Virus record (IMG/VR): IMGVR_UViG_2721755497_000002
Span: 1 to 46,410 of that record
Source of the DNA: a virus
Taxonomy: Duplodnaviria; Heunggongvirae; Uroviricota; Caudoviricetes
Reading direction: 5' to 3' (one strand)
DNA length: 46,410 nucleotides
How positions within the stretch are numbered: position 1 is the stretch's first letter; each line of letters starts with the position of its first letter. Under the pieces are notes generated by a model, which did no database searches, was not told the DNA's origin, and saw nothing but the letters and a program-made list of their open reading frames with translations. This document shows, piece by piece, positions 892 to 19,913 of this stretch. The position numbers and the translations under genes were made by a program.

Positions 892-981
892 GGAGAGATG
901 CCGGAGCGGCTGAACGGACCGGTCTCGAAAACCGGAGTGGGGGCAACTCCACCGGGGGTTCAAATCCCCCTCTCTCCGCCA
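892..981 (+). tRNA. serU: tRNA-Ser, anticodon CGA; prophage integration target
   Basis: 90-nt sequence GGAGAGATGCCGGAGCGGCTGAACGG...TTCAAATCCCCCTCTCTCCGCCA with long variable arm, anticodon loop CTCGAAA, 3' CCA; sits between mtfA and the phage integrase. Confidence 0.9.
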
Positions 982-1063
982 AAATTCAATCACTTACACA
1001 TCATTAAGTCAGTGACAAAAATCACACTTGGAATTACTTGGAATATTTTCTTGGAATATTTTC
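982..1063. repeat. attL candidate: tRNA 3' flank with tandem direct repeats (CTTGGAAT x3, including TTGGAATATTTTC x2) overlapping the int 3' end; possible arm-type Int binding sites
   Basis: Direct repeats visible at about 1027-1063, immediately between the tRNA and the integrase stop codon. Confidence 0.3.
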
Positions 1064-2059
1064 AGGTAACGGGACATCAAGTGTTGGTGAAACTTTAACC
1101 TTCCTGTCATAGATTAGCACTTGCCCTTCGGTTTTGTGACCAGAGAAAAGTTGCTTATCCCGGCTGCTTCCTTCATAGTCTGAAATTCCTTTCGCCTTCA
1201 GATCATGAAAGGTGAAGTCGGATAAAATACCTGAAATTTTTCCAGCACGATTTCTTGCTTCTACCCACATTTCGTTAAAGCCTTTGTACATATATCGGTT
1301 GCCGTATTGATTGCTGATCACATAGGCAGATTTTGGTAACTGTTTTGCTTTTTCGATCGCTGCCTGTAATCGTGGACTCCATGCTTTTATCTGTTTTTTT
1401 CCGGTTTTCCCTTGCTGGATGAATATCCCGTCGTTTCCAATCTGTTCCCATTTCAGCGATAACACATCGGAAACCCTCGCTGCACACAGATAGGCAATTT
1501 CCATTGCGATAAAAACAGGAAGAGGTGCAACGCTTAATACTGCCTGGTATTCTTTGTCGGTTACATATCGTTCGCGGTTTTTGGCCTTGAATTTACTTAC
1601 ACCTGCACATGGGTTAGCCTTGACGTACCCTCGCTCATACCCCCAACTGTAAACACGGGACATACTGCTTTTTTCATGGTTGGCTTGCGTTTTACTCTGC
1701 TCCCCTCTTTTGTCCATGTATCGACGGATGTGTTCTGGTTTTATGGAATCCGCTGGTACCTTACCGAATACGGCAAGCAACTTTTTTTGATGTTGCAGAT
1801 AATCTTTTTGTGTTCTTGGACTAAGGTCACTGTAATAGGCGCTGGCGAGGAATTTTTCCCACAAGCGACCGAATGTCATTGCACGATCGCGATTATTTAC
1901 AGTTTCCTCATACTTTTTCCATAAAGCAGCTAAACCATCCTTGATGGCGGTTAGTGTGACAGATTCTCTGGATGTTGGTTTCCATACATAACTATATTTA
2001 TTTGGGTATACATTTGGAGGTAATTTTTCGTGTTCAGGATTTTTCCTTCGTCTTCCCAT
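1034..2059 (-). CDS. int: Tyrosine integrase, lambda Int family
   Basis: 341-aa ORF; N-terminus MGRRRK...LPPN resembles lambda Int; directly adjacent to the tRNA integration site. Confidence 0.9.
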   Translation of the reverse strand: MGRRRKNPEHEKLPPNVYPNKYSYVWKPTSRESVTLTAIKDGLAALWKKYEETVNNRDRAMTFGRLWEKFLASAYYSDLSPRTQKDYLQHQKKLLAVFGKVPADSIKPEHIRRYMDKRGEQSKTQANHEKSSMSRVYSWGYERGYVKANPCAGVSKFKAKNRERYVTDKEYQAVLSVAPLPVFIAMEIAYLCAARVSDVLSLKWEQIGNDGIFIQQGKTGKKQIKAWSPRLQAAIEKAKQLPKSAYVISNQYGNRYMYKGFNEMWVEARNRAGKISGILSDFTFHDLKAKGISDYEGSSRDKQLFSGHKTEGQVLIYDRKVKVSPTLDVPLPENIPRKYSK

Positions 2060-4855: not shown

Positions 4856-5047
4856 TTAAAATCCTGCCGGGATTTCGTTATTATCCTGGTGAATAACTTT
4901 ATCGACCGGATAACAGTTGCCTGGAATTTTCTGTTCGGTTGCTGCTGCCATACATTCCTGCATTGTTCTGTGAACACTGACTGCAATATCAACTGGCTCT
5001 CCGGAAACAAGAAAAACCGTCAGAATAAGTGCAAATACTGGATTCAT
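4856..5047 (-). CDS. ydfD: YdfD, small membrane lysis protein of the dicB operon
   Basis: Internal Met of ORF 4856..5101 gives 63 aa MNPVFALILTVFLVSGEPVD... matching YdfD as recalled; start overlaps dicB stop (ATGA). Confidence 0.75.
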   Translation of the reverse strand: MNPVFALILTVFLVSGEPVDIAVSVHRTMQECMAAATEQKIPGNCYPVDKVIHQDNNEIPAGF

Positions 5048-5232
5048 TGTGCACATCCCTTTGGCATCAGACGTAAACGGGCCAGCATTGAAACAATGCA
5101 TACTTTATTTAATAACTCCCGTTCGTGTTTTCTTTTGTTAATGGCATCTTCAGTAAATACAGGATTACTGATAGTGACACCAATTTCAAAACAACCTTCA
5201 GACGTATTAACGTTTGGTAATAACGTTTTCAT
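5044..5232 (-). CDS. dicB: DicB cell division inhibitor (MinC-activating)
   Basis: Internal Met of ORF 5044..5337 gives 62 aa MKTLLPNVNTSEGCFEIGVTISNPVFTEDAINKRK...MPKGCAQ, matching DicB of Qin prophage. Confidence 0.85.
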   Translation of the reverse strand: MKTLLPNVNTSEGCFEIGVTISNPVFTEDAINKRKHERELLNKVCIVSMLARLRLMPKGCAQ

Positions 5233-5406: not shown

Positions 5407-5459
5407 GGGCGGCAGAGCAGTCACGGAGTAAAACTGATACCGCCAAACGTCACCAGAAA
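5407..5459 (-). ncRNA. dicF: DicF small RNA (Hfq-dependent, represses ftsZ)
   Basis: Reverse complement reads TTTCTGGTGACGTTTGGCGGTATCAGTTTTACTCCGTGACTGCTCTGCCGCCC followed by a U-tract; lies between ydfC and dicB as in Qin. Confidence 0.8.
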
Positions 5460-6622: not shown

Positions 6623-6901
6623 TTAGGGAAACTGGCGTCTTGCGTGGATCACGTTTACTACTTCAACGCTTGATGTTGTTACGCGGTATAGAATTATATA
6701 GTTAGGGTGGGCCACAATCTCACGCAAGCCAGGTACTCTGTCGCTTGGTGGGTATAAATACGGATGTTCGGATAATGGCAGCACACAACCCCTTAATCGC
6801 TGCCATAAGCGTTCAGCCGCATCTACGTCGAAACGAGCAATATAACTAGTTATATCATCTAGGTCGGTATCTGCGCTTTCAAGCCATAACACGGGTAACA
6901 T
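6623..6901 (-). CDS. ParE/RelE-family type II toxin (candidate)
   Basis: About 92 aa from internal Met (MLPVLWLESADTDLDDITSYIARF...IHARRQFP); size and composition typical of ParE/RelE toxins; start is 1 nt after the stop of the upstream small gene. Confidence 0.65.
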   Translation of the reverse strand: MLPVLWLESADTDLDDITSYIARFDVDAAERLWQRLRGCVLPLSEHPYLYPPSDRVPGLREIVAHPNYIILYRVTTSSVEVVNVIHARRQFP

Positions 6902-6902
6902 T

Positions 6903-7094
6903 TTACTGCTTGCTCCGTTCCTTCCGCATTTTAGCAAAGCGTTCTGCCATTCTGCGCTCAACTTCGTCATGGGGAATTGCTGGGCGCGGATCTGCAAGGC
7001 TTGTTGCTACTTTCGCACGCAGCCATTCGTTGTAACTGTTTTCTTGTTCAATGGTTTCAAATTCAGAAACCATTGGTGAAAGGGCTCTATTCAT
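6903..7094 (-). CDS. Cognate antitoxin candidate (small DNA-binding protein)
   Basis: 63 aa from internal Met (MNRALSPMVSEFETIEQENSYNEWLRAK...); GGAGG Shine-Dalgarno 4 nt upstream; immediately upstream of and coupled to the toxin gene. Confidence 0.55.
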   Translation of the reverse strand: MNRALSPMVSEFETIEQENSYNEWLRAKVATSLADPRPAIPHDEVERRMAERFAKMRKERSKQ

Positions 7095-12858: not shown

Positions 12859-13527
12859 ATGAATGAATTAACCAAAGAATGGTTACAGAACACGATTACC
12901 GGAATTGAATCGATAATGGACGATACATCGTTTGTATGTAGCGAAATAGCATTCGAAATCGGTAAGGTTAAAAACGTACTTACCGCATTTAAAATTGCGC
13001 TGGCATCGCTGGAAGAAGAGCCGATAGCGTGGCGATATCGCTACGTGAAAAAAGGTGTTACGGACTATCAGGGGGAGCTGTGGGTTGGTGACTGGAAATA
13101 TGTACCGACAAAAGAGGATTGCAACGACAGGCCGAACTATGAAATTCAGGCGTTATTCACTTCCCCGCCTGTGCCAGTAGTACCTGAAGAAAAACCAATG
13201 CCTAACCCTCTTAAAATGTACGCGGTCGATGCTGTTGCCGCTATTGCAGAGGTGAGAGGCTGGAACGCCTGCCGCGCCGCTATGCTTCAGAGTCAAGATA
13301 GTGGCATCAAAGATGGTTGGATAAGCTGTAGCGAGCGAATGCAGGATAGCAAAACAGGTGTTCTTGTTGCGCGCGAGCTTGACGGGAAAGGTGACTGGCG
13401 AATGAAATGGGCGACTTACATCCCGGGTCATCCTGACGCTAATGACGGGTGGCTAATTCCTGGGGCGTCATGGAAACCGTCACACTGGATGCCACTGCCA
13501 GAACCGCCGCAGGAGGTGAATCAATGA
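12859..13527 (+). CDS. Hypothetical protein, DUF551-like C-terminus (WMPLPEPP)
   Basis: 222-aa ORF; C-terminal motif typical of phage nin-region DUF551 proteins. Confidence 0.55.
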   Translation: MNELTKEWLQNTITGIESIMDDTSFVCSEIAFEIGKVKNVLTAFKIALASLEEEPIAWRYRYVKKGVTDYQGELWVGDWKYVPTKEDCNDRPNYEIQALFTSPPVPVVPEEKPMPNPLKMYAVDAVAAIAEVRGWNACRAAMLQSQDSGIKDGWISCSERMQDSKTGVLVARELDGKGDWRMKWATYIPGHPDANDGWLIPGASWKPSHWMPLPEPPQEVNQ

Positions 13528-13607
13528 CCTGGCCTGAAGCATTCACCACGGTAGGGATTGCAATGGCGGTGGCACTGGTGGTGTATTCGATTTGCAGCTG
13601 GGGATGA
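13524..13607 (+). CDS. Possible 27-aa hydrophobic peptide (MTWPEAFTTVGIAMAVALVVYSICSWG)
   Basis: ATG overlaps upstream stop (ATGA); single predicted transmembrane helix; not in ORF track. Confidence 0.25.
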   Translation: MTWPEAFTTVGIAMAVALVVYSICSWG

Positions 13608-13617
13608 TAAGTAGCAC

Positions 13618-13645
13618 GGTGCGGGGCATTGTTTGCCCCGCTAAT
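13618..13645. terminator. Hairpin GCGGGGCattgtttGCCCCGC between convergent genes; candidate bidirectional terminator
   Basis: Perfect 7-bp GC stem followed by T-rich tract. Confidence 0.45.
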
Positions 13646-13653
13646 TTGATTAT

Positions 13654-13821
13654 TTATTTGGGGGTAATATCCTGAAGTGTAGCGTTTATTTCTTCGCCTG
13701 TATCTGTATTTCTGAGTTGATATGTAATGTCGTCGTTTCTAATAATTTGCACTAAAAGCCATTCTCCATTTTTTTCACGTAAGTGAACAGTACTGTTTTC
13801 TGATATACCATGAACAGTCAT
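13654..13821 (-). CDS. Hypothetical small protein on the opposite strand (about 55 aa from internal Met MTVHGISEN...)
   Basis: ORF 13654..13956 minus in an AT-rich stretch convergent with the nin-like operon; weak support. Confidence 0.3.
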   Translation of the reverse strand: MTVHGISENSTVHLREKNGEWLLVQIIRNDDITYQLRNTDTGEEINATLQDITPK

Positions 13822-14088
13822 TTTTATACCTTTTGTGTTGTGTGAACGATGAGTATAGTCAGAAATGAGACTGTGAAGGGGGATAGAAAATAATAGTTTG
13901 TTTTTGTAGAATCGCTGCGGGTGCTTGGGGCTATCTGTCTCAGGCATGAACACCAAAAGGCAGATAGAGAAAAGCCCCAGTTAACATTACGCGTCCGGCA
14001 AGACGCTTAACATTAATCTGAGGCCATATCTATGACTTGCACGCGTAGGTTAGCCTCTTACGTGCCGAAAGGCAAGGAGAAGCAGGCT

Positions 14089-14244
14089 ATGAAGCAGCAA
14101 AAGGCGATGTTAATCGCCCTGATCGTCATCTGTTTAACCGTCATAGTGACGGCACTGGTAACGAGGAAAGACCTCTGCGAGGTACGAATCCGAACCGGCC
14201 AGACGGAGGTCGCTGTCTTCACAGTCTACGAACCTGAGGAGTAA
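14089..14244 (+). CDS. hokD: Hok/Gef-family type I toxin
   Basis: Internal Met of ORF 14032..14244 gives MKQQKAMLIALIVICLTVIVTALVTRKDLCEVRIRTGQTEVAVFTVYEPEE, a near match to HokD/RelF as recalled; upstream in-frame extension is consistent with a mok-like leader. Confidence 0.8.
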   Translation: MKQQKAMLIALIVICLTVIVTALVTRKDLCEVRIRTGQTEVAVFTVYEPEE

Positions 14245-14312
14245 GAGACCAGGCGGGGGAGAAATCTCCCGCCACCTCTGATGTGTCAGGCATCCTCAAC
14301 GCACCCGCGCTT

Positions 14313-14340
14313 AACCCGCTTCGTCGGGTTTTGTTTTTTC
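14313..14340 (+). terminator. Rho-independent terminator after hok (CCCGcttcgtCGGG + TTTTGTTTTTT)
   Basis: Hairpin followed by T-tract; preceded by a second hairpin GGCGGGGGAGaaatCTCCCGCC. Confidence 0.5.
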
Positions 14341-14411
14341 CTGGCATTCTGGTTTACAATTCGCACGTCAGCCTGAACAACTGGCACCTGCTGCGCCAGC
14401 AGAGACAACCG

Positions 14412-14690
14412 ATGGCGCACGATACCAAATTACACAATTCTGATGATTCTGCCGTCTTTGCCAGCAGGCACGGGCGGCGTTCCCGCACTTTCAAATCTGA
14501 CTGGTTCCAGCATGACCCATGTACTGAAGAACAGGCCGAATGGCTAATTCATAACTATCGCAGACGCGGATACGAGATTAAGAAAGCCCTCAGCCTCGAT
14601 TATCGTCACTGGATAATCTATGTCAGGCTCCCTTATTCCGAACGCCCACCGCGCCCATCCCGCACATACCAGCAACGGATCTGGAGGTAA
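14412..14690 (+). CDS. Rem-like hypothetical protein
   Basis: Internal Met (MAHDTKLHNSDD...) downstream of the hok terminator; position between hok and DUF968 gene mirrors Qin rem. Confidence 0.45.
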   Translation: MAHDTKLHNSDDSAVFASRHGRRSRTFKSDWFQHDPCTEEQAEWLIHNYRRRGYEIKKALSLDYRHWIIYVRLPYSERPPRPSRTYQQRIWR

Positions 14691-18243: not shown

Positions 18244-18319
18244 GGCCCTTTAGCTCAGTGGTGAGAGCGAGCGACTCATAATCGCCAGGTCGCTGGTTCA
18301 AATCCAGCAAGGGCCACCA
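18244..18319 (+). tRNA. tRNA with CAU anticodon (Met or lysidine-dependent Ile2; ileZ-like phage tRNA)
   Basis: 76 nt GGCCCTTTAGCTCAGTGGTGAGAGC...ACTCATAATCG...GGTTCAAATCCAGCAAGGGCCACCA; canonical cloverleaf. Confidence 0.8.
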
Positions 18320-18326
18320 TCTCATA

Positions 18327-18403
18327 CCGCCATTAGCTCATCGGGACAGAGCGCCAGCCTTCGAAGCTGGCGGCGCGGGGTTCGGGTCCTCGATGGCGGT
18401 CCA
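18327..18403 (+). tRNA. tRNA-Arg, anticodon UCG (argN-like phage tRNA)
   Basis: 77 nt; acceptor CCGCCAT/ATGGCGG, anticodon loop CTTCGAA, T-arm CGGGG-TTCGGGT-CCTCG, CCA end. Confidence 0.75.
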
Positions 18404-18416
18404 TTATCTGCACCAT

Positions 18417-18490
18417 GCGGTCATCGTATAATGGCTATTGCATCAGCCTTCCTGGCTGATTATGCGGGGCAATTCCCGCTGACCGCTCCA
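18417..18490 (+). tRNA. tRNA-like element, argO-like but degenerate (non-canonical anticodon loop CTTCCTG and shortened T-loop GCAATT)
   Basis: Acceptor GCGGTCA/TGACCGC with CCA end; anticodon and T-loops deviate from consensus; may be a pseudo-tRNA. Confidence 0.4.
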
Positions 18491-19104: not shown

Positions 19105-19304
19105 TTCTACATCTTTGCAGTAAACAATAATCATAATTGCATGTTTTTTCTGTGGTGGGGCATTTGGCTTCTGTTGCCTGCGATGTATTGTGGACCTGGT
19201 ATCAGCCTGCAGAAAATGCACACAGGTGTGAAGTGTTAAATTCCTCACAACTCAGAACGCAGAATGTTGTCCTGCTTGCGGGGAATTTGTTAAAAGAGTA
19301 CAGC

Positions 19305-19423
19305 ATGGTGAATCCCCCTGAGCGGAGGGGCATAATGACAGATGTTTGGTCGTGTTATCGTATAGGCAAGTTGCGGATTCTGTCTGGTCATTGCAGAATT
19401 CACCGGGAGGCACCCGGCACCAT
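19305..19423. repeat. Repeat unit copy 1 (about 119 bp): ATGGTGAATCCCCCTGAGCGGAGGGGC ... CACCGGGAGGCACCCGGCACCAT with two GC-rich hairpins
   Basis: Termini shared with copy 2 and mutually reverse-complementary (ATGGTG / CACCAT). Confidence 0.45.
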
Positions 19424-19558
19424 GTATTTTCAATATGTTATTGATCATTCTCTTTTTCGGAATACTCTGGTTATGTTTTCCTGTAACTGATAATTAAATC
19501 ACATTTTGTGTAACTGCATATTGTCTGAACGGGATAAGTTTCAGTATCTTCTGAATGT

Positions 19559-19678
19559 ATGGCGAATCCCCCTGTGCGGCGGGGCGTACTGATTTAAGTA
19601 GTCATCCAAGAATGCAGCTGAATGAAAACGCGCTCCATATTAATCAGTGGTGGAGCACCGGGAGGCACCCGGCGCCAT
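19559..19678. repeat. Repeat unit copy 2 (about 120 bp): ATGGCGAATCCCCCTGTGCGGCGGGGC ... CACCGGGAGGCACCCGGCGCCAT
   Basis: Same terminal hairpin modules as copy 1, divergent interior. Confidence 0.45.
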
Positions 19679-19707
19679 ACCGATGATGAAAGTAAATGCG
19701 TCCATCC

Positions 19708-19732
19708 GCCCCTCTCCGGAGGGGCTTTTTTA
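19708..19732 (+). terminator. Strong rho-independent terminator (GCCCCTCtccgGAGGGGC + TTTTTT) upstream of nanS-p
   Basis: 7-bp GC stem, 4-nt loop, T-tract. Confidence 0.6.
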
Positions 19733-19913
19733 TGGGCAAAAAAAGCCCGCTACGAATGGTAACGGGCTGCACAAAATAACAAAATGTGAAGTATTCTAAT
19801 CAGCCGCTGAATAATACCCGACAGTAATTAATCTGTGCAACGGTGCTTTTTCCCGCCTTGCAGGCACCGACTCTCTCATTTGATTTAACGCATTATCCCG
19901 TCCGGGAGGATTC

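What the first reader, a model, noticed from the sequence alone, without database searches (positions are those of the whole stretch)
13960..14345. hok locus with in-frame upstream leader and structured 3' end
The Hok-family toxin ORF is preceded by an in-frame upstream reading frame (mok-like) and followed by two hairpins, the second a clear intrinsic terminator. A sok-like antisense RNA would be expected on the minus strand across the leader, about 13960-14090, but cannot be delimited by eye. A small convergent minus-strand ORF (13654..13821) ends just upstream.
Basis: partly seen in the sequence, partly recalled or inferred. Interest (0 to 1): 0.4.

Follow-up and report, generated by a model that had tools for sequence, protein, structure and literature searches.

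The report
Complete hok/mok/sok toxin-antitoxin module in prophage
This is an ordinary, complete copy of the well-known hok/sok toxin-antitoxin cassette (a small membrane-killing peptide held in check by an antisense RNA) in a lambda-like prophage of E. coli, about 93% identical to the experimentally studied hokW-sokW of Shiga-toxin phages.

Summary
The window matches E. coli M1/M3 chromosomes at 100% and lies in a lambdoid prophage. It carries a 51-aa Hok toxin gene (14089-14244, Pfam HOK_GEF 2.6e-22, PGAP name hokD), an in-frame mok ORF from ATG 14032, a post-stop hairpin (14252-14273) and an intrinsic terminator (14313-14339).

The module is larger than the finding's coordinates. The conserved cassette runs from 13906 to about 14338, and the inferred mRNA starts at G13919.

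All sequence-level hallmarks of the hok family are present:
- a 5'/3' tac-fbi helix (13919-13930 with 14294-14306) that covaries across genera;
- ucb sequestering the mok Shine-Dalgarno;
- an alternative tac/ucb stem;
- a Sok antisense gene (14040 to 13970, minus strand) whose promoter and terminator hairpin are identical to the tested sokW.

Two corrections apply. The neighbouring minus-strand ORF (13821 to 13654) is divergent from hok, not convergent. The Rfam "sok" hit lies on the hok-sense strand, so it marks the leader, not Sok.

K-12 hokD is a leaderless remnant of this locus type. Transcripts, processing and toxicity were not testable here.

Verdict: already known, low interest. Side observations: a hypervariable Sok 5' tail, an invariant TadA-editing motif (TACG, Tyr47), and a second divergent hok locus at 43689-44086.

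The parts
13884..13912 (+). hok promoter-like site: TAGAAA, 17 nt, TAGAAT. Only the -10 box (13907-13912) lies inside the conserved cassette; the -35 comes from the local context.
   Evidence: Consensus scan. Homology with 933W, Rac and most E. coli copies begins at 13906.
13919..14339 (+). Inferred full-length hok mRNA (421 nt), from the G 7 nt after the -10 box to the terminator T-run.
   Evidence: The Rfam RF01794 model starts at 13919. The MFE fold is -169 kcal/mol with 5'/3' closure. The ends are inferred, not mapped.
13919..13930 (+). tac (translational activator) element, GGGUGCUUGGGG.
   Evidence: It pairs with fbi in the full-length fold and with ucb in the alternative fold. Position 4 covaries with its fbi partner (U:A in 19 sequences, C:G in 11).
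13972..13980 (+). ucb / anti-SD box (AAGCCCCAG).
   Evidence: In the closed fold it pairs with the mok SD region 14018-14024. In the open fold it pairs with tac.
13970..14040 (-). Sok antisense RNA homolog (about 71 nt; 3' end somewhere in 13964-13970). It has a 5' single-stranded tail of about 15 nt (14040 to 14026), then a long imperfect hairpin followed by UUUUCUCU.
   Evidence: Annotated sokW and sokC map onto these coordinates. Fold -28.6 kcal/mol. 55/55 identity to sokW over 13970-14023, but only 8/17 in the tail segment 14024-14040.
14047..14075 (-). sok promoter: -35 TTGCCT (14075 to 14070), 17-nt spacer, -10 TAACCT (14052 to 14047); transcription start inferred at 14040.
   Evidence: 30/30 identical to the sokW promoter. 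Mutating that -10 box abolished antitoxin activity in Sp5 (PMC8621323). The generic consensus scan did not flag it.
14020..14023 (+). mok Shine-Dalgarno (GAGG), 8 nt upstream of the mok ATG.
   Evidence: Read directly from the sequence. Invariant in 32 homologs. Sequestered by ucb in the full-length fold.
14032..14244 (+). mok reading frame (70 codons), here in frame with hok, so it encodes an N-terminally extended Hok.
   Evidence: The ATG is conserved in 30/32 homologs. It is in frame in 23; in the 7 out-of-frame copies that keep the ATG the ORF still reads across the hok start.
14054..14058 (+). dcb (GCCUC), partner of the mok SD in the open conformation. It overlaps the spacer of the sok promoter on the other strand.
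   Evidence: Rfam consensus structure. The pairs at columns 102-107 with 139-143 are invariant. The model is described in PMC9841398.
14089..14244 (+). hok toxin gene, 51 aa; SD AAGGAG at 14074-14079.
   Evidence: Pfam HOK_GEF 2.6e-22. PGAP name hokD, WP_000813256.1. 154/156 nt identical to K-12 hokD.
14226..14232 (+). CUACGAA: Tyr47 codon UAC followed by G, which is the TadA A-to-I editing motif (predicted Tyr-to-Cys recoding at A14228).
   Evidence: TACGAA is invariant in all 32 homologs. The motif and recoding are described for hokB, C, D and E (bioRxiv 10.1101/2025.08.07.668861). Editing itself was not tested here.
14252..14273 (+). Post-stop hairpin (9 bp, GAAA loop); presumed protective 3' hairpin of the processed (truncated) mRNA.
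   Evidence: 96% of cells are paired across homologs, 2 pairs with double changes (helix 16). The role is inferred from the R1 system (PMC9841398).
14294..14306 (+). fbi (fold-back inhibition) element, CCUCAACGCACCC.
   Evidence: It forms a 12-bp helix with one bulge to 13919-13930. A complement of tac lies 45-56 nt after the hok stop in 30 of the 32 intact, full-length homologous loci tabulated.
14313..14339 (+). Intrinsic terminator of the hok mRNA.
   Evidence: Terminator scan. All 6 pairs show compensatory changes among homologs (helix 18).

Best explanation
The locus is a complete hok/mok/sok type I toxin-antitoxin cassette (about 13906-14339). It is of the HokD/HokW type and sits in the nin region of a lambdoid E. 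coli prophage. The mechanism below is inferred by homology to plasmid R1 hok/sok and phage hokW/sokW.

1. A weak promoter makes a 421-nt hok mRNA. Its 5' tac element pairs with the 3' fbi element while ucb masks the mok ribosome-binding site, so the full-length RNA is neither translated nor bound by Sok.
2. Slow 3' trimming back to the hairpin at 14252-14273 removes fbi. tac then pairs with ucb, which exposes the mok Shine-Dalgarno and a target hairpin.
3. The short-lived 71-nt Sok RNA (14040 to 13970, minus strand) pairs there through its 5' tail. It blocks mok translation, and hence coupled hok translation, and triggers RNase III cleavage.
4. If sok transcription stops (loss or induction of the prophage), Sok decays. 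Mok and Hok are then made and Hok damages the inner membrane.

Shown here: every sequence and structure element, its conservation and its covariation. Inferred: the transcripts, the processing, the toxicity and the biological role. The role could be prophage retention, accelerated lysis and release on induction as reported for hokW-sokW, or both.
For: - Hok domain E=2.6e-22; hok leader model RF01794 at 111.5 bits.
- End-to-end alignment with annotated hokW/mokW/sokW and hokC/mokC/sokC, with the Sok and mok starts coinciding.
- The sok promoter (30/30) and Sok hairpin (55/55) are identical to sokW. The antitoxin function and promoter of sokW were tested genetically (PMC8621323).
- The unconstrained MFE fold of 13919-14339 reproduces the textbook closed form (tac/fbi plus ucb/SDmok).
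- tac/fbi complementarity is kept in Escherichia, Kluyvera, Citrobacter, Pantoea and Photorhabdus copies, with a compensatory U:A to C:G change.
- Across 32 homologs the whole fold is 86% paired against about 42% for slid controls, with 39 double-sided changes against about 18.
- The closed form is favoured by 11.7 kcal/mol in the full-length RNA. The open tac/ucb form is within 0.2 kcal/mol of the optimum once the 3' end is removed.
- The mok ATG is conserved in 30/32 homologs, and its ORF crosses the hok start whatever the frame.
Against: - There is no expression data for this strain. The transcription starts and the 3' processing site are inferred.
- The sok promoter matches the sigma-70 consensus poorly (7/12) and was not picked up by the generic scan.
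- The truncated RNA's MFE is the 5' metastable hairpin, not the tac/ucb stem, although the two are nearly isoenergetic.
- The single-sequence shuffle test for tac/fbi is only modest (60 of 2000 shuffles as good), because tac is G-rich and the 3' UTR is C-rich.
- Chromosomal hok loci tested in the literature did not mediate post-segregational killing, so a complete anatomy does not prove activity.
- This copy has G instead of A at tac position 10 (13928), which turns an A-U pair with fbi into G-U.
Confidence: 0.92

Rival explanations
1. The cassette is an anatomically intact but functionally silent relic. It would resemble the K-12 chromosomal hok loci, carried along passively with the prophage and never producing enough Hok to matter.
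For: [quoted passage not shown]
- The prophage integrase is frameshifted and a tail-fibre gene is frameshifted, so the element may be decaying.
- tac position 10 carries an A-to-G variant.
Against: - No element is missing or disrupted, unlike K-12 hokD (leader replaced, no RF01794 hit) or K-12 hokC (IS186 just downstream of hokC, with the fbi complement lost).
- The ORF is intact, and HokD-type peptides are toxic when expressed.
- The sok promoter is identical to a functional one.
- The A-to-G change keeps pairing as a G-U wobble.
Confidence: 0.15
2. hok is expressed mainly as a passenger of the phage delayed-early (PR) transcript rather than from its own promoter. On induction, antiterminated read-through from the replication genes crosses the cassette. 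This occludes the convergent sok promoter and makes 5'-extended hok RNAs that cannot form the tac/fbi lock, so Hok production is coupled to induction and speeds up lysis.
For: - hok is co-oriented with the upstream replication genes and the downstream DUF968-RusA-Q genes.
- In Sp5, SokW disappears and HokW appears only on RecA-dependent induction, and deleting the locus halves phage release (PMC8621323).
- K-12 hokD lies directly downstream of relBE on the same strand, with its own leader replaced by relBE sequence. That it is co-transcribed with relBE is from my own knowledge and was not checked here.
Against: - A terminator-like hairpin lies upstream at 13621-13641.
- The cassette keeps its own -10 box and a free 5' tac end that is conserved and covaries.
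- In 933W the homologous cassette sits in a different place and orientation, so the read-through geometry is not a conserved feature.
- No transcript data are available.
Confidence: 0.2
3. The upstream in-frame ORF is simply the true start of a longer 70-aa Hok protein. On this view there is no separate mok function and no antisense control.
For: The ORF from 14032 is open and in frame. 933W and K-12 annotate the equivalent 70- and 69-aa products.
Against: - In 7 of 30 homologs that keep the ATG, the upstream ORF is in another frame yet still reads across the hok start. Translation through the region is therefore conserved, not the peptide.
- The first codons are the most variable part of the whole cassette.
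- hok has its own AAGGAG Shine-Dalgarno, and the Pfam domain starts at Hok residue 6.
Confidence: 0.05

Closest known systems
hokW / mokW / sokW of Stx2 phages 933W and Sp5 (VT2-Sakai)
   Same: About 93% identical over 13906-14316. The mok and hok starts are at the same positions. Annotated sokW maps onto 13970-14040. The sok promoter is 30/30 and the Sok hairpin 55/55 identical. It is shown experimentally to be a type I toxin-antitoxin pair that is partly dependent on RNase III and Hfq (PMC8621323).
   Different: The Sok 5' tail and the first mok codons are only 8/17 identical. Four C-terminal Hok residues differ (…FTVYEPEE here, …FVDYESEK in HokW). The terminator segment is not shared (10/33). 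The position in the phage genome differs: the nin region, co-oriented with Q, here; beyond the large gene L0134 near the right end of 933W.
hokD (relF) of the Qin cryptic prophage, E. coli K-12
   Same: The Hok peptide is 50/51 identical, the CDS 154/156 nt, the 3' UTR with fbi 59/63 and the terminator 29/33. PGAP therefore names this gene hokD.
   Different: K-12 hokD lacks the whole leader: tac, ucb, mok and sok are replaced by relBE sequence, homology starts only about 20 nt before the ATG, and RF01794 gives no hit. The window holds the complete form, of which K-12 hokD looks like a truncated derivative.
hokC (gef) / mokC / sokC, E. coli K-12 chromosome
   Same: Same architecture, with an in-frame mok. 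The annotated sokC start coincides with 14040, and RF01794 scores 118 bits on the hok-sense strand.
   Different: The CDS is 83% identical (130/156). The Sok hairpin is 18 nt shorter. The K-12 copy has IS186 just downstream of hokC and no longer shows the fbi complement.
hok/sok of plasmid R1 (the paradigm)
   Same: The same regulatory logic: tac/fbi lock, ucb/SDmok, tac/ucb switch after 3' processing, mok-coupled translation and a cis-antisense Sok (model summarised in PMC9841398).
   Different: It is a distant homolog (HokW is 44% identical to R1 Hok, per PMC8621323) and is plasmid-borne. Post-segregational killing is demonstrated there but not for this locus.

Membership tests
[quoted passage not shown] | Small (about 50 aa) hydrophobic Hok/Gef-family toxin ORF | tested here: met
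   PF01848 E=2.6e-22, covering 42/42 profile positions. 50/51 aa identical to K-12 HokD.
[quoted passage not shown] | Upstream mok ORF with its own SD that reads across the hok start (translational coupling) | tested here: met
   GAGG at 14020-14023 and ATG at 14032. The ORF runs to 14244 and coincides with annotated mokW and mokC. It is conserved in 30/32 homologs irrespective of frame. Coupling itself was not tested.
[quoted passage not shown] | cis-encoded antisense Sok gene opposite the mok translation-initiation region, with its own promoter and terminator | tested here: met
   The region 14040 to 13970 is homologous to annotated sokW and sokC. It folds as a tail plus a hairpin plus a U-rich stretch. 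The promoter is identical to the functionally tested sokW promoter.
[quoted passage not shown] | Long-range tac/fbi pairing between the 5' end and the 3' UTR of the hok mRNA | tested here: met
   A 12-bp helix in the unconstrained MFE fold. None of 312 other 13-mers of the mRNA binds the 3' UTR as well, and 60 of 2000 UTR shuffles do. It is conserved with a compensatory change across genera.
[quoted passage not shown] | ucb masks the mok SD in the full-length RNA; alternative tac/ucb and SDmok/dcb stems form in the truncated RNA | tested here: met
   ucb/SD pairs are in the MFE fold, with covariation at two pairs. The Rfam consensus open structure fits. The energy gap between closed and open forms drops from 11.7 to 0.2 kcal/mol when the 3' end is removed.
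[quoted passage not shown] | Sok RNA and full-length or truncated hok mRNAs are actually produced; 3' exonucleolytic processing; RNase III cleavage of the duplex | not testable with these tools
   This needs Northern blots, RACE or RNA-seq. Partial evidence exists only for the 93% identical hokW-sokW (PMC8621323).
[quoted passage not shown] | Hok toxicity that is neutralised by Sok | not testable with these tools
   Shown for HokW/SokW, and toxicity for HokD-type peptides. Not shown for this copy.
[quoted passage not shown] | YUNR (U-turn) motif in the Sok-target loop | tested here: inconclusive
   The loop of the target hairpin in the window contains CUUG (14036-14039) opposite the Sok 5' end. 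I could not find the motif consistently by eye in the loop alleles listed. No systematic test was done.
K-12-type hokD (relBE-hokD operon) | hok gene directly behind relBE with no leader, mok or sok of its own | tested here: not met
   The window has the full leader and sok. The prophage's RelE/RelB-like pair lies 7 kb away on the other strand (6623-7094). The name hokD fits the peptide, not the locus architecture.
TadA-edited hok mRNAs | Tyr codon UAC followed by G (UACG) at the second-cysteine position | tested here: met
   UACG at 14227-14230 within CUACGAA. It is invariant in 32 homologs, and the motif is defined. Editing itself is not testable here.

The most novel reading that the evidence does not exclude
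The 23-nt stretch that encodes the Sok 5' recognition tail, the target loop and the first mok codons (14024-14046) may be a specificity cassette under diversifying pressure.

Among 77 prophage copies whose Hok is at least 98% identical, it is by far the most variable part of the module. There are 20 distinct variants of the 41-nt stretch 14016-14056 around it, flanked by an invariant Sok hairpin and promoter. The three co-resident copies with a leader in one Shigella flexneri genome (L010, L012, L016) carry three different tails.

This would insulate the several hok/sok cassettes that many E. coli genomes carry (median 2 and up to 11 places that match the query per genome) from one another's antitoxins. 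Each prophage would then stay individually 'addictive'.

The neutral alternative is that this is the only stretch free of protein, structure and promoter constraints, with antisense complementarity being automatic. My data do not exclude that alternative.
Probability: 0.3. Interest if true: 0.4.

Novelty: already known. Interest (0 to 1): 0.1.

Why it matters
It matters little beyond annotation.

- The RefSeq record names only the toxin CDS (hokD). The mok frame, the Sok RNA gene, both promoters and the mRNA fold-back elements can now be annotated to the base.
- The locus shows the complete form of the cassette, of which K-12 hokD/relF looks like a truncated derivative.
- The Rfam family called 'sok' in fact models the sense-strand hok leader. 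That is worth knowing for anyone who reads automated ncRNA calls.
- The hypervariable Sok tail is a cheap, testable lead on how multiple co-resident hok/sok cassettes might avoid cross-talk.

Tried and rejected
1. The generic sigma-70 scan found the hok promoter but not the sok promoter (TTGCCT/TAACCT, 7/12). I located it by homology instead.
2. I first took the Rfam 'sok' hit as evidence for Sok. Checking K-12 hokC and 933W showed that the model always matches the hok-sense strand, opposite the annotated sokC and sokW. It therefore supports the leader, not the antisense RNA.
3. The MFE fold of the 3'-truncated RNA did not give the tac/ucb stem spontaneously. It gave the 5' metastable hairpin. 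A constrained fold shows the two are within 0.2 kcal/mol.
4. The shuffle test of tac/fbi on the single sequence is weak (p about 0.03), because tac is G-rich and the UTR is C-rich. Covariation carries the argument.
5. In alignment A2 the distal half of tac/fbi is out of register for Photorhabdus and Pantoea, because the Escherichia-type copies have a bulged C. The tool therefore counts those cells as unpaired. Per-sequence duplex folding shows that they pair.
6. I tested whether the downstream ORF (14412-14690) is Rem, as in Qin and Rac. It shows no similarity.
7. No Pfam family matches the divergent 55-aa ORF or its 100-aa TTG extension.
8. A look for a YUNR motif in the target loops was inconclusive.
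9. I could not run a genome-wide test of whether co-resident copies carry different Sok tails.

Full report
**What is there**

The window is 100% identical to the chromosomes of mouse E. coli strains M1 and M3 over the queried 551 bases. The RefSeq annotation shows a lambdoid prophage integrated next to tRNA-Ser.

The finding lies in the nin region. Upstream are the replication genes and a DUF551 gene. Downstream are a hypothetical gene, DUF968, RusA and the Q antiterminator, all on the + strand. PGAP annotates only one feature inside the finding: hokD at 14089-14244.

**Check of the observation**

- The 51-aa ORF is a Hok/Gef toxin (PF01848, E=2.6e-22).
- An ATG at 14032 opens a 70-codon frame that is in frame with hok.
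- The MFE fold shows a 9-bp hairpin at 14252-14273.
- The terminator scan finds 14313-14330 followed by a T-run to 14339.
- Rfam RF01794 matches 13919-14094 at 111.5 bits.

Three details need correction.

1. The locus starts earlier than 13960. A TAGAAT -10 box sits at 13907-13912, and the leader model begins at G13919.
2. Sok is short, 14040 to about 13970. It does not span 13960-14090.
3. The minus-strand ORF 13821 to 13654 (55 aa, hypothetical, no Pfam hit) has its start codon next to hok. It is divergent, not convergent.

**Homology**

The segment 13906 to about 14338 behaves as a discrete cassette. Most E. coli and phage matches begin exactly at 13906. It is found in 4,739 of 5,426 complete E. 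coli genomes (median 2 places, up to 11), in Stx phages, in P1-like phages and on plasmids.

Phage 933W annotates the homologous cassette as mokW, hokW and the SokW antisense RNA. K-12 annotates mokC, hokC and sokC. In a five-way alignment the annotated mok starts map to 14032 and the hok starts to 14089. The 5' ends of both annotated Sok RNAs map to 14040. Their 3' ends map to 13970 (sokW) and 13964 (sokC).

Segment identities to 933W are as follows:

| Segment | Identity to 933W |
|---|---|
| sok promoter | 30/30 |
| Sok hairpin | 55/55 |
| hok CDS | 149/156 |
| Sok 5' tail | 8/17 |
| terminator | 10/33 |

K-12 hokD (relF) shares the CDS (154/156), the 3' UTR and the terminator. Its leader is replaced by relBE sequence, and it gives no RF01794 hit. 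The window thus holds the complete form of a cassette of which K-12 hokD looks like a truncated remnant. The PGAP name reflects the peptide only.

**A caution on Rfam**

RF01794 is called 'sok antitoxin'. In the window, in 933W and at K-12 hokC it matches the hok-sense strand, opposite the annotated sokW and sokC. It is a model of the hok mRNA leader, from tac to the hok AUG. The evidence for Sok itself comes from the mapping and fold described above.

**Structure**

The regulatory model is summarised in PMC9841398. The full-length hok mRNA is locked by a tac/fbi 5'-3' stem while ucb sequesters the mok SD. 3' processing then allows tac/ucb and SDmok/dcb stems to form, permitting Sok binding or mok/hok translation. 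A metastable 5' hairpin acts during transcription.

The unconstrained fold of 13919-14339 (-169 kcal/mol) reproduces the closed form. Positions 13919-13930 pair with 14294-14306, and 13974-13980 pair with the mok SD region 14018-14024. Forcing tac/ucb costs 11.7 kcal/mol in the full-length RNA. It costs only 0.2 kcal/mol once the RNA ends after the 14252-14273 hairpin. The unconstrained fold of the truncated RNA shows the metastable 5' hairpin.

I collected 47 loci from one-genome-per-species contigs. In 30 of the 32 intact, full-length loci tabulated, a complement of the 5' end lies 45-56 nt after the hok stop. Escherichia-type GGGUGC/GCACCC is replaced by GGGCGC/GCGCCC in Photorhabdus and Pantoea.

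On a 32-sequence alignment (A2):

- Pair 4 of tac/fbi is U:A in 19 sequences and C:G in 11.
- That same tac position is bulged in the tac/ucb stem, whose pairs never vary.
- The window's full-length fold is 86% paired across homologs against 38-46% for slid controls. It has 39 pairs with double-sided changes against 17-20 for the controls.
- This includes a conserved, covarying long-range helix that buries the hok start (14084-14098) against the 3' end of the coding region.

The single-sequence shuffle test is only modest (60 of 2000). However, none of 312 other 13-mers of the mRNA binds the 3' UTR as well as tac.

**Sok**

On the minus strand the sequence reads TTGCCT (14075-14070), a 17-nt spacer, TAACCT (14052-14047), 6 nt, then G14040. 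The predicted RNA has a single-stranded 5' tail of about 15 nt and a long imperfect hairpin followed by UUUUCUCU.

The promoter is weak by consensus and was missed by the scan. It is base-for-base the sokW promoter. In Sp5, mutating that -10 box (primer YO-421) abolished protection from HokW. SokW supplied in trans partially restored protection. SokW and hokW RNAs were seen on Northern blots (PMC8621323).

**mok**

The ATG at 14032 is conserved in 30 of 32 homologs. It is in frame with hok in 23, in the +1 frame in 5 and in the +2 frame in 2. In every one of these the ORF crosses the hok start. What is conserved is translation into the hok initiation region, as expected for coupling.

**Mechanism and role**

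Identity as a hok/mok/sok module is secure (confidence about 0.92). The steps of the mechanism are inferred from R1 and hokW/sokW. Nothing here shows transcripts, processing or toxicity.

The biological role is open. It could be prophage retention by post-segregational killing. It could be faster lysis and release on induction, as shown for hokW-sokW in Sp5. It could be exclusion of other phages, as reported for R1 hok/sok, or nothing at all, as suggested for some chromosomal copies. Because this copy is co-oriented with the early-right operon, read-through on induction could occlude the sok promoter. That is speculation.

**Known or new**

Prophage-borne hok loci are catalogued at scale. A recent survey reports 6,290 Hok homologs in IMG/VR and a four-fold enrichment in prophages (bioRxiv 10.1101/2025.08.07.668861). 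The closest relative has been characterised experimentally. This is an already-known element, and its interest is low.

**Side observations**

- Among 77 IMG/VR copies with at least 98% identical Hok, the most variable part of the cassette is 14024-14046, the Sok tail, target loop and first mok codons. There are 20 distinct variants of the 41-nt stretch 14016-14056, between invariant flanks.
- TACGAA (Tyr47 plus Glu48, 14227-14232) is invariant in all 32 homologs. It forms the TadA editing motif.
- The same prophage carries a second, divergent hok-like locus after gpJ (about 43689-44086). It has its own tac/fbi-like ends, but its leader match is below the Rfam threshold.
- The prophage also carries a RelE/RelB-like pair at 6623-7094.

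Noticed in passing
window 43689-44086 (+); CDS 43816-43956: A second, divergent hok-like locus lies in the same prophage, just after gpJ. It has a 46-aa GTG-start 'Hok/Gef family protein' (PGAP). The 5' end GGGUGCC (43689) has a complementary GGCACC(U) near 44017-44023. There is a post-stop hairpin at 43966-43987 and a terminator at 44053-44086. The RF01794 leader match is only 27.6 bits, below the gathering score of 59, so the default scan missed it. The prophage therefore carries two unrelated hok cassettes.
   Followed up: partly
window 14024-14046 (both strands): The Sok 5' tail, target loop and first mok codons form the most variable stretch of the cassette among 77 prophage copies with at least 98% identical Hok. 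There are 20 distinct variants of the 41-nt stretch 14016-14056, and the minor-allele fraction reaches 0.2, against 0.06 or less in the rest of the leader (about 0.01 in its most conserved stretches). The Sok hairpin and promoter are invariant. This could be specificity diversification or simply the only unconstrained stretch.
   Followed up: partly
window 14226-14232 (+): CUACGAA is the Tyr47 codon UAC followed by G, which is the TadA A-to-I editing motif predicted to recode Tyr47 to Cys. TACGAA is invariant at the nucleotide level in all 32 homologs from Escherichia to Photorhabdus.
   Followed up: partly
window 13919-14094 (+); L004 602-754 (-); L002 1514-1688 (+): The Rfam family RF01794, named 'sok antitoxin', matches the hok-sense strand in every case checked, opposite the annotated sokC and sokW. 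It models the hok mRNA leader, so automated 'sok' calls based on it carry the wrong strand and extent for the antitoxin.
   Followed up: yes
window 6623-7094 (-): A RelE/ParE-family toxin plus RelB-family antitoxin pair lies next to the immunity region. It is 7 kb from hok and on the opposite strand. In K-12 Qin, by contrast, relBE is fused directly upstream of hokD.
   Followed up: no
window 19274-19478 and 19529-19737 (+): Two tandem copies of the sRNA family STnc100 (118.9 and 98.5 bits) lie downstream of the Q gene and the tRNA cluster, ahead of a DUF6645 gene.
   Followed up: no
window 5407-5458 (-) and 5044-5232 (-): A full-length DicF sRNA (76.7 bits) and dicB are present, with the ydfABC genes as in the K-12 Qin dicBF operon. 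DicF is not among the features listed for this stretch of the RefSeq record.
   Followed up: no
window 892-981 (+), 1009-2059 (-), 44098-45505 (+): The prophage abuts tRNA-Ser. Its integrase and a tail-fibre gene are annotated as frameshifted, so the element may be defective.
   Followed up: no
window 13525-13607 (+) and 13621-13641 (+): A short unannotated ORF (MTWPEAFTTVGIAMAVALVVYSICSWG, hydrophobic) overlaps the end of the DUF551 gene and is followed by a terminator-like hairpin. The same sequence (GAATCAATGACCTGGCCTGAAGC) is the forward primer YO-432 that was used to clone hokW-sokW from Sp5, so this short stretch also occurs upstream of hokW in Sp5.
   Followed up: no
window 18244-18490 (+): A phage tRNA cluster (Ile, Arg, Gly) lies downstream of Q. 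The Rfam gathering scan reported only the first two.
   Followed up: no
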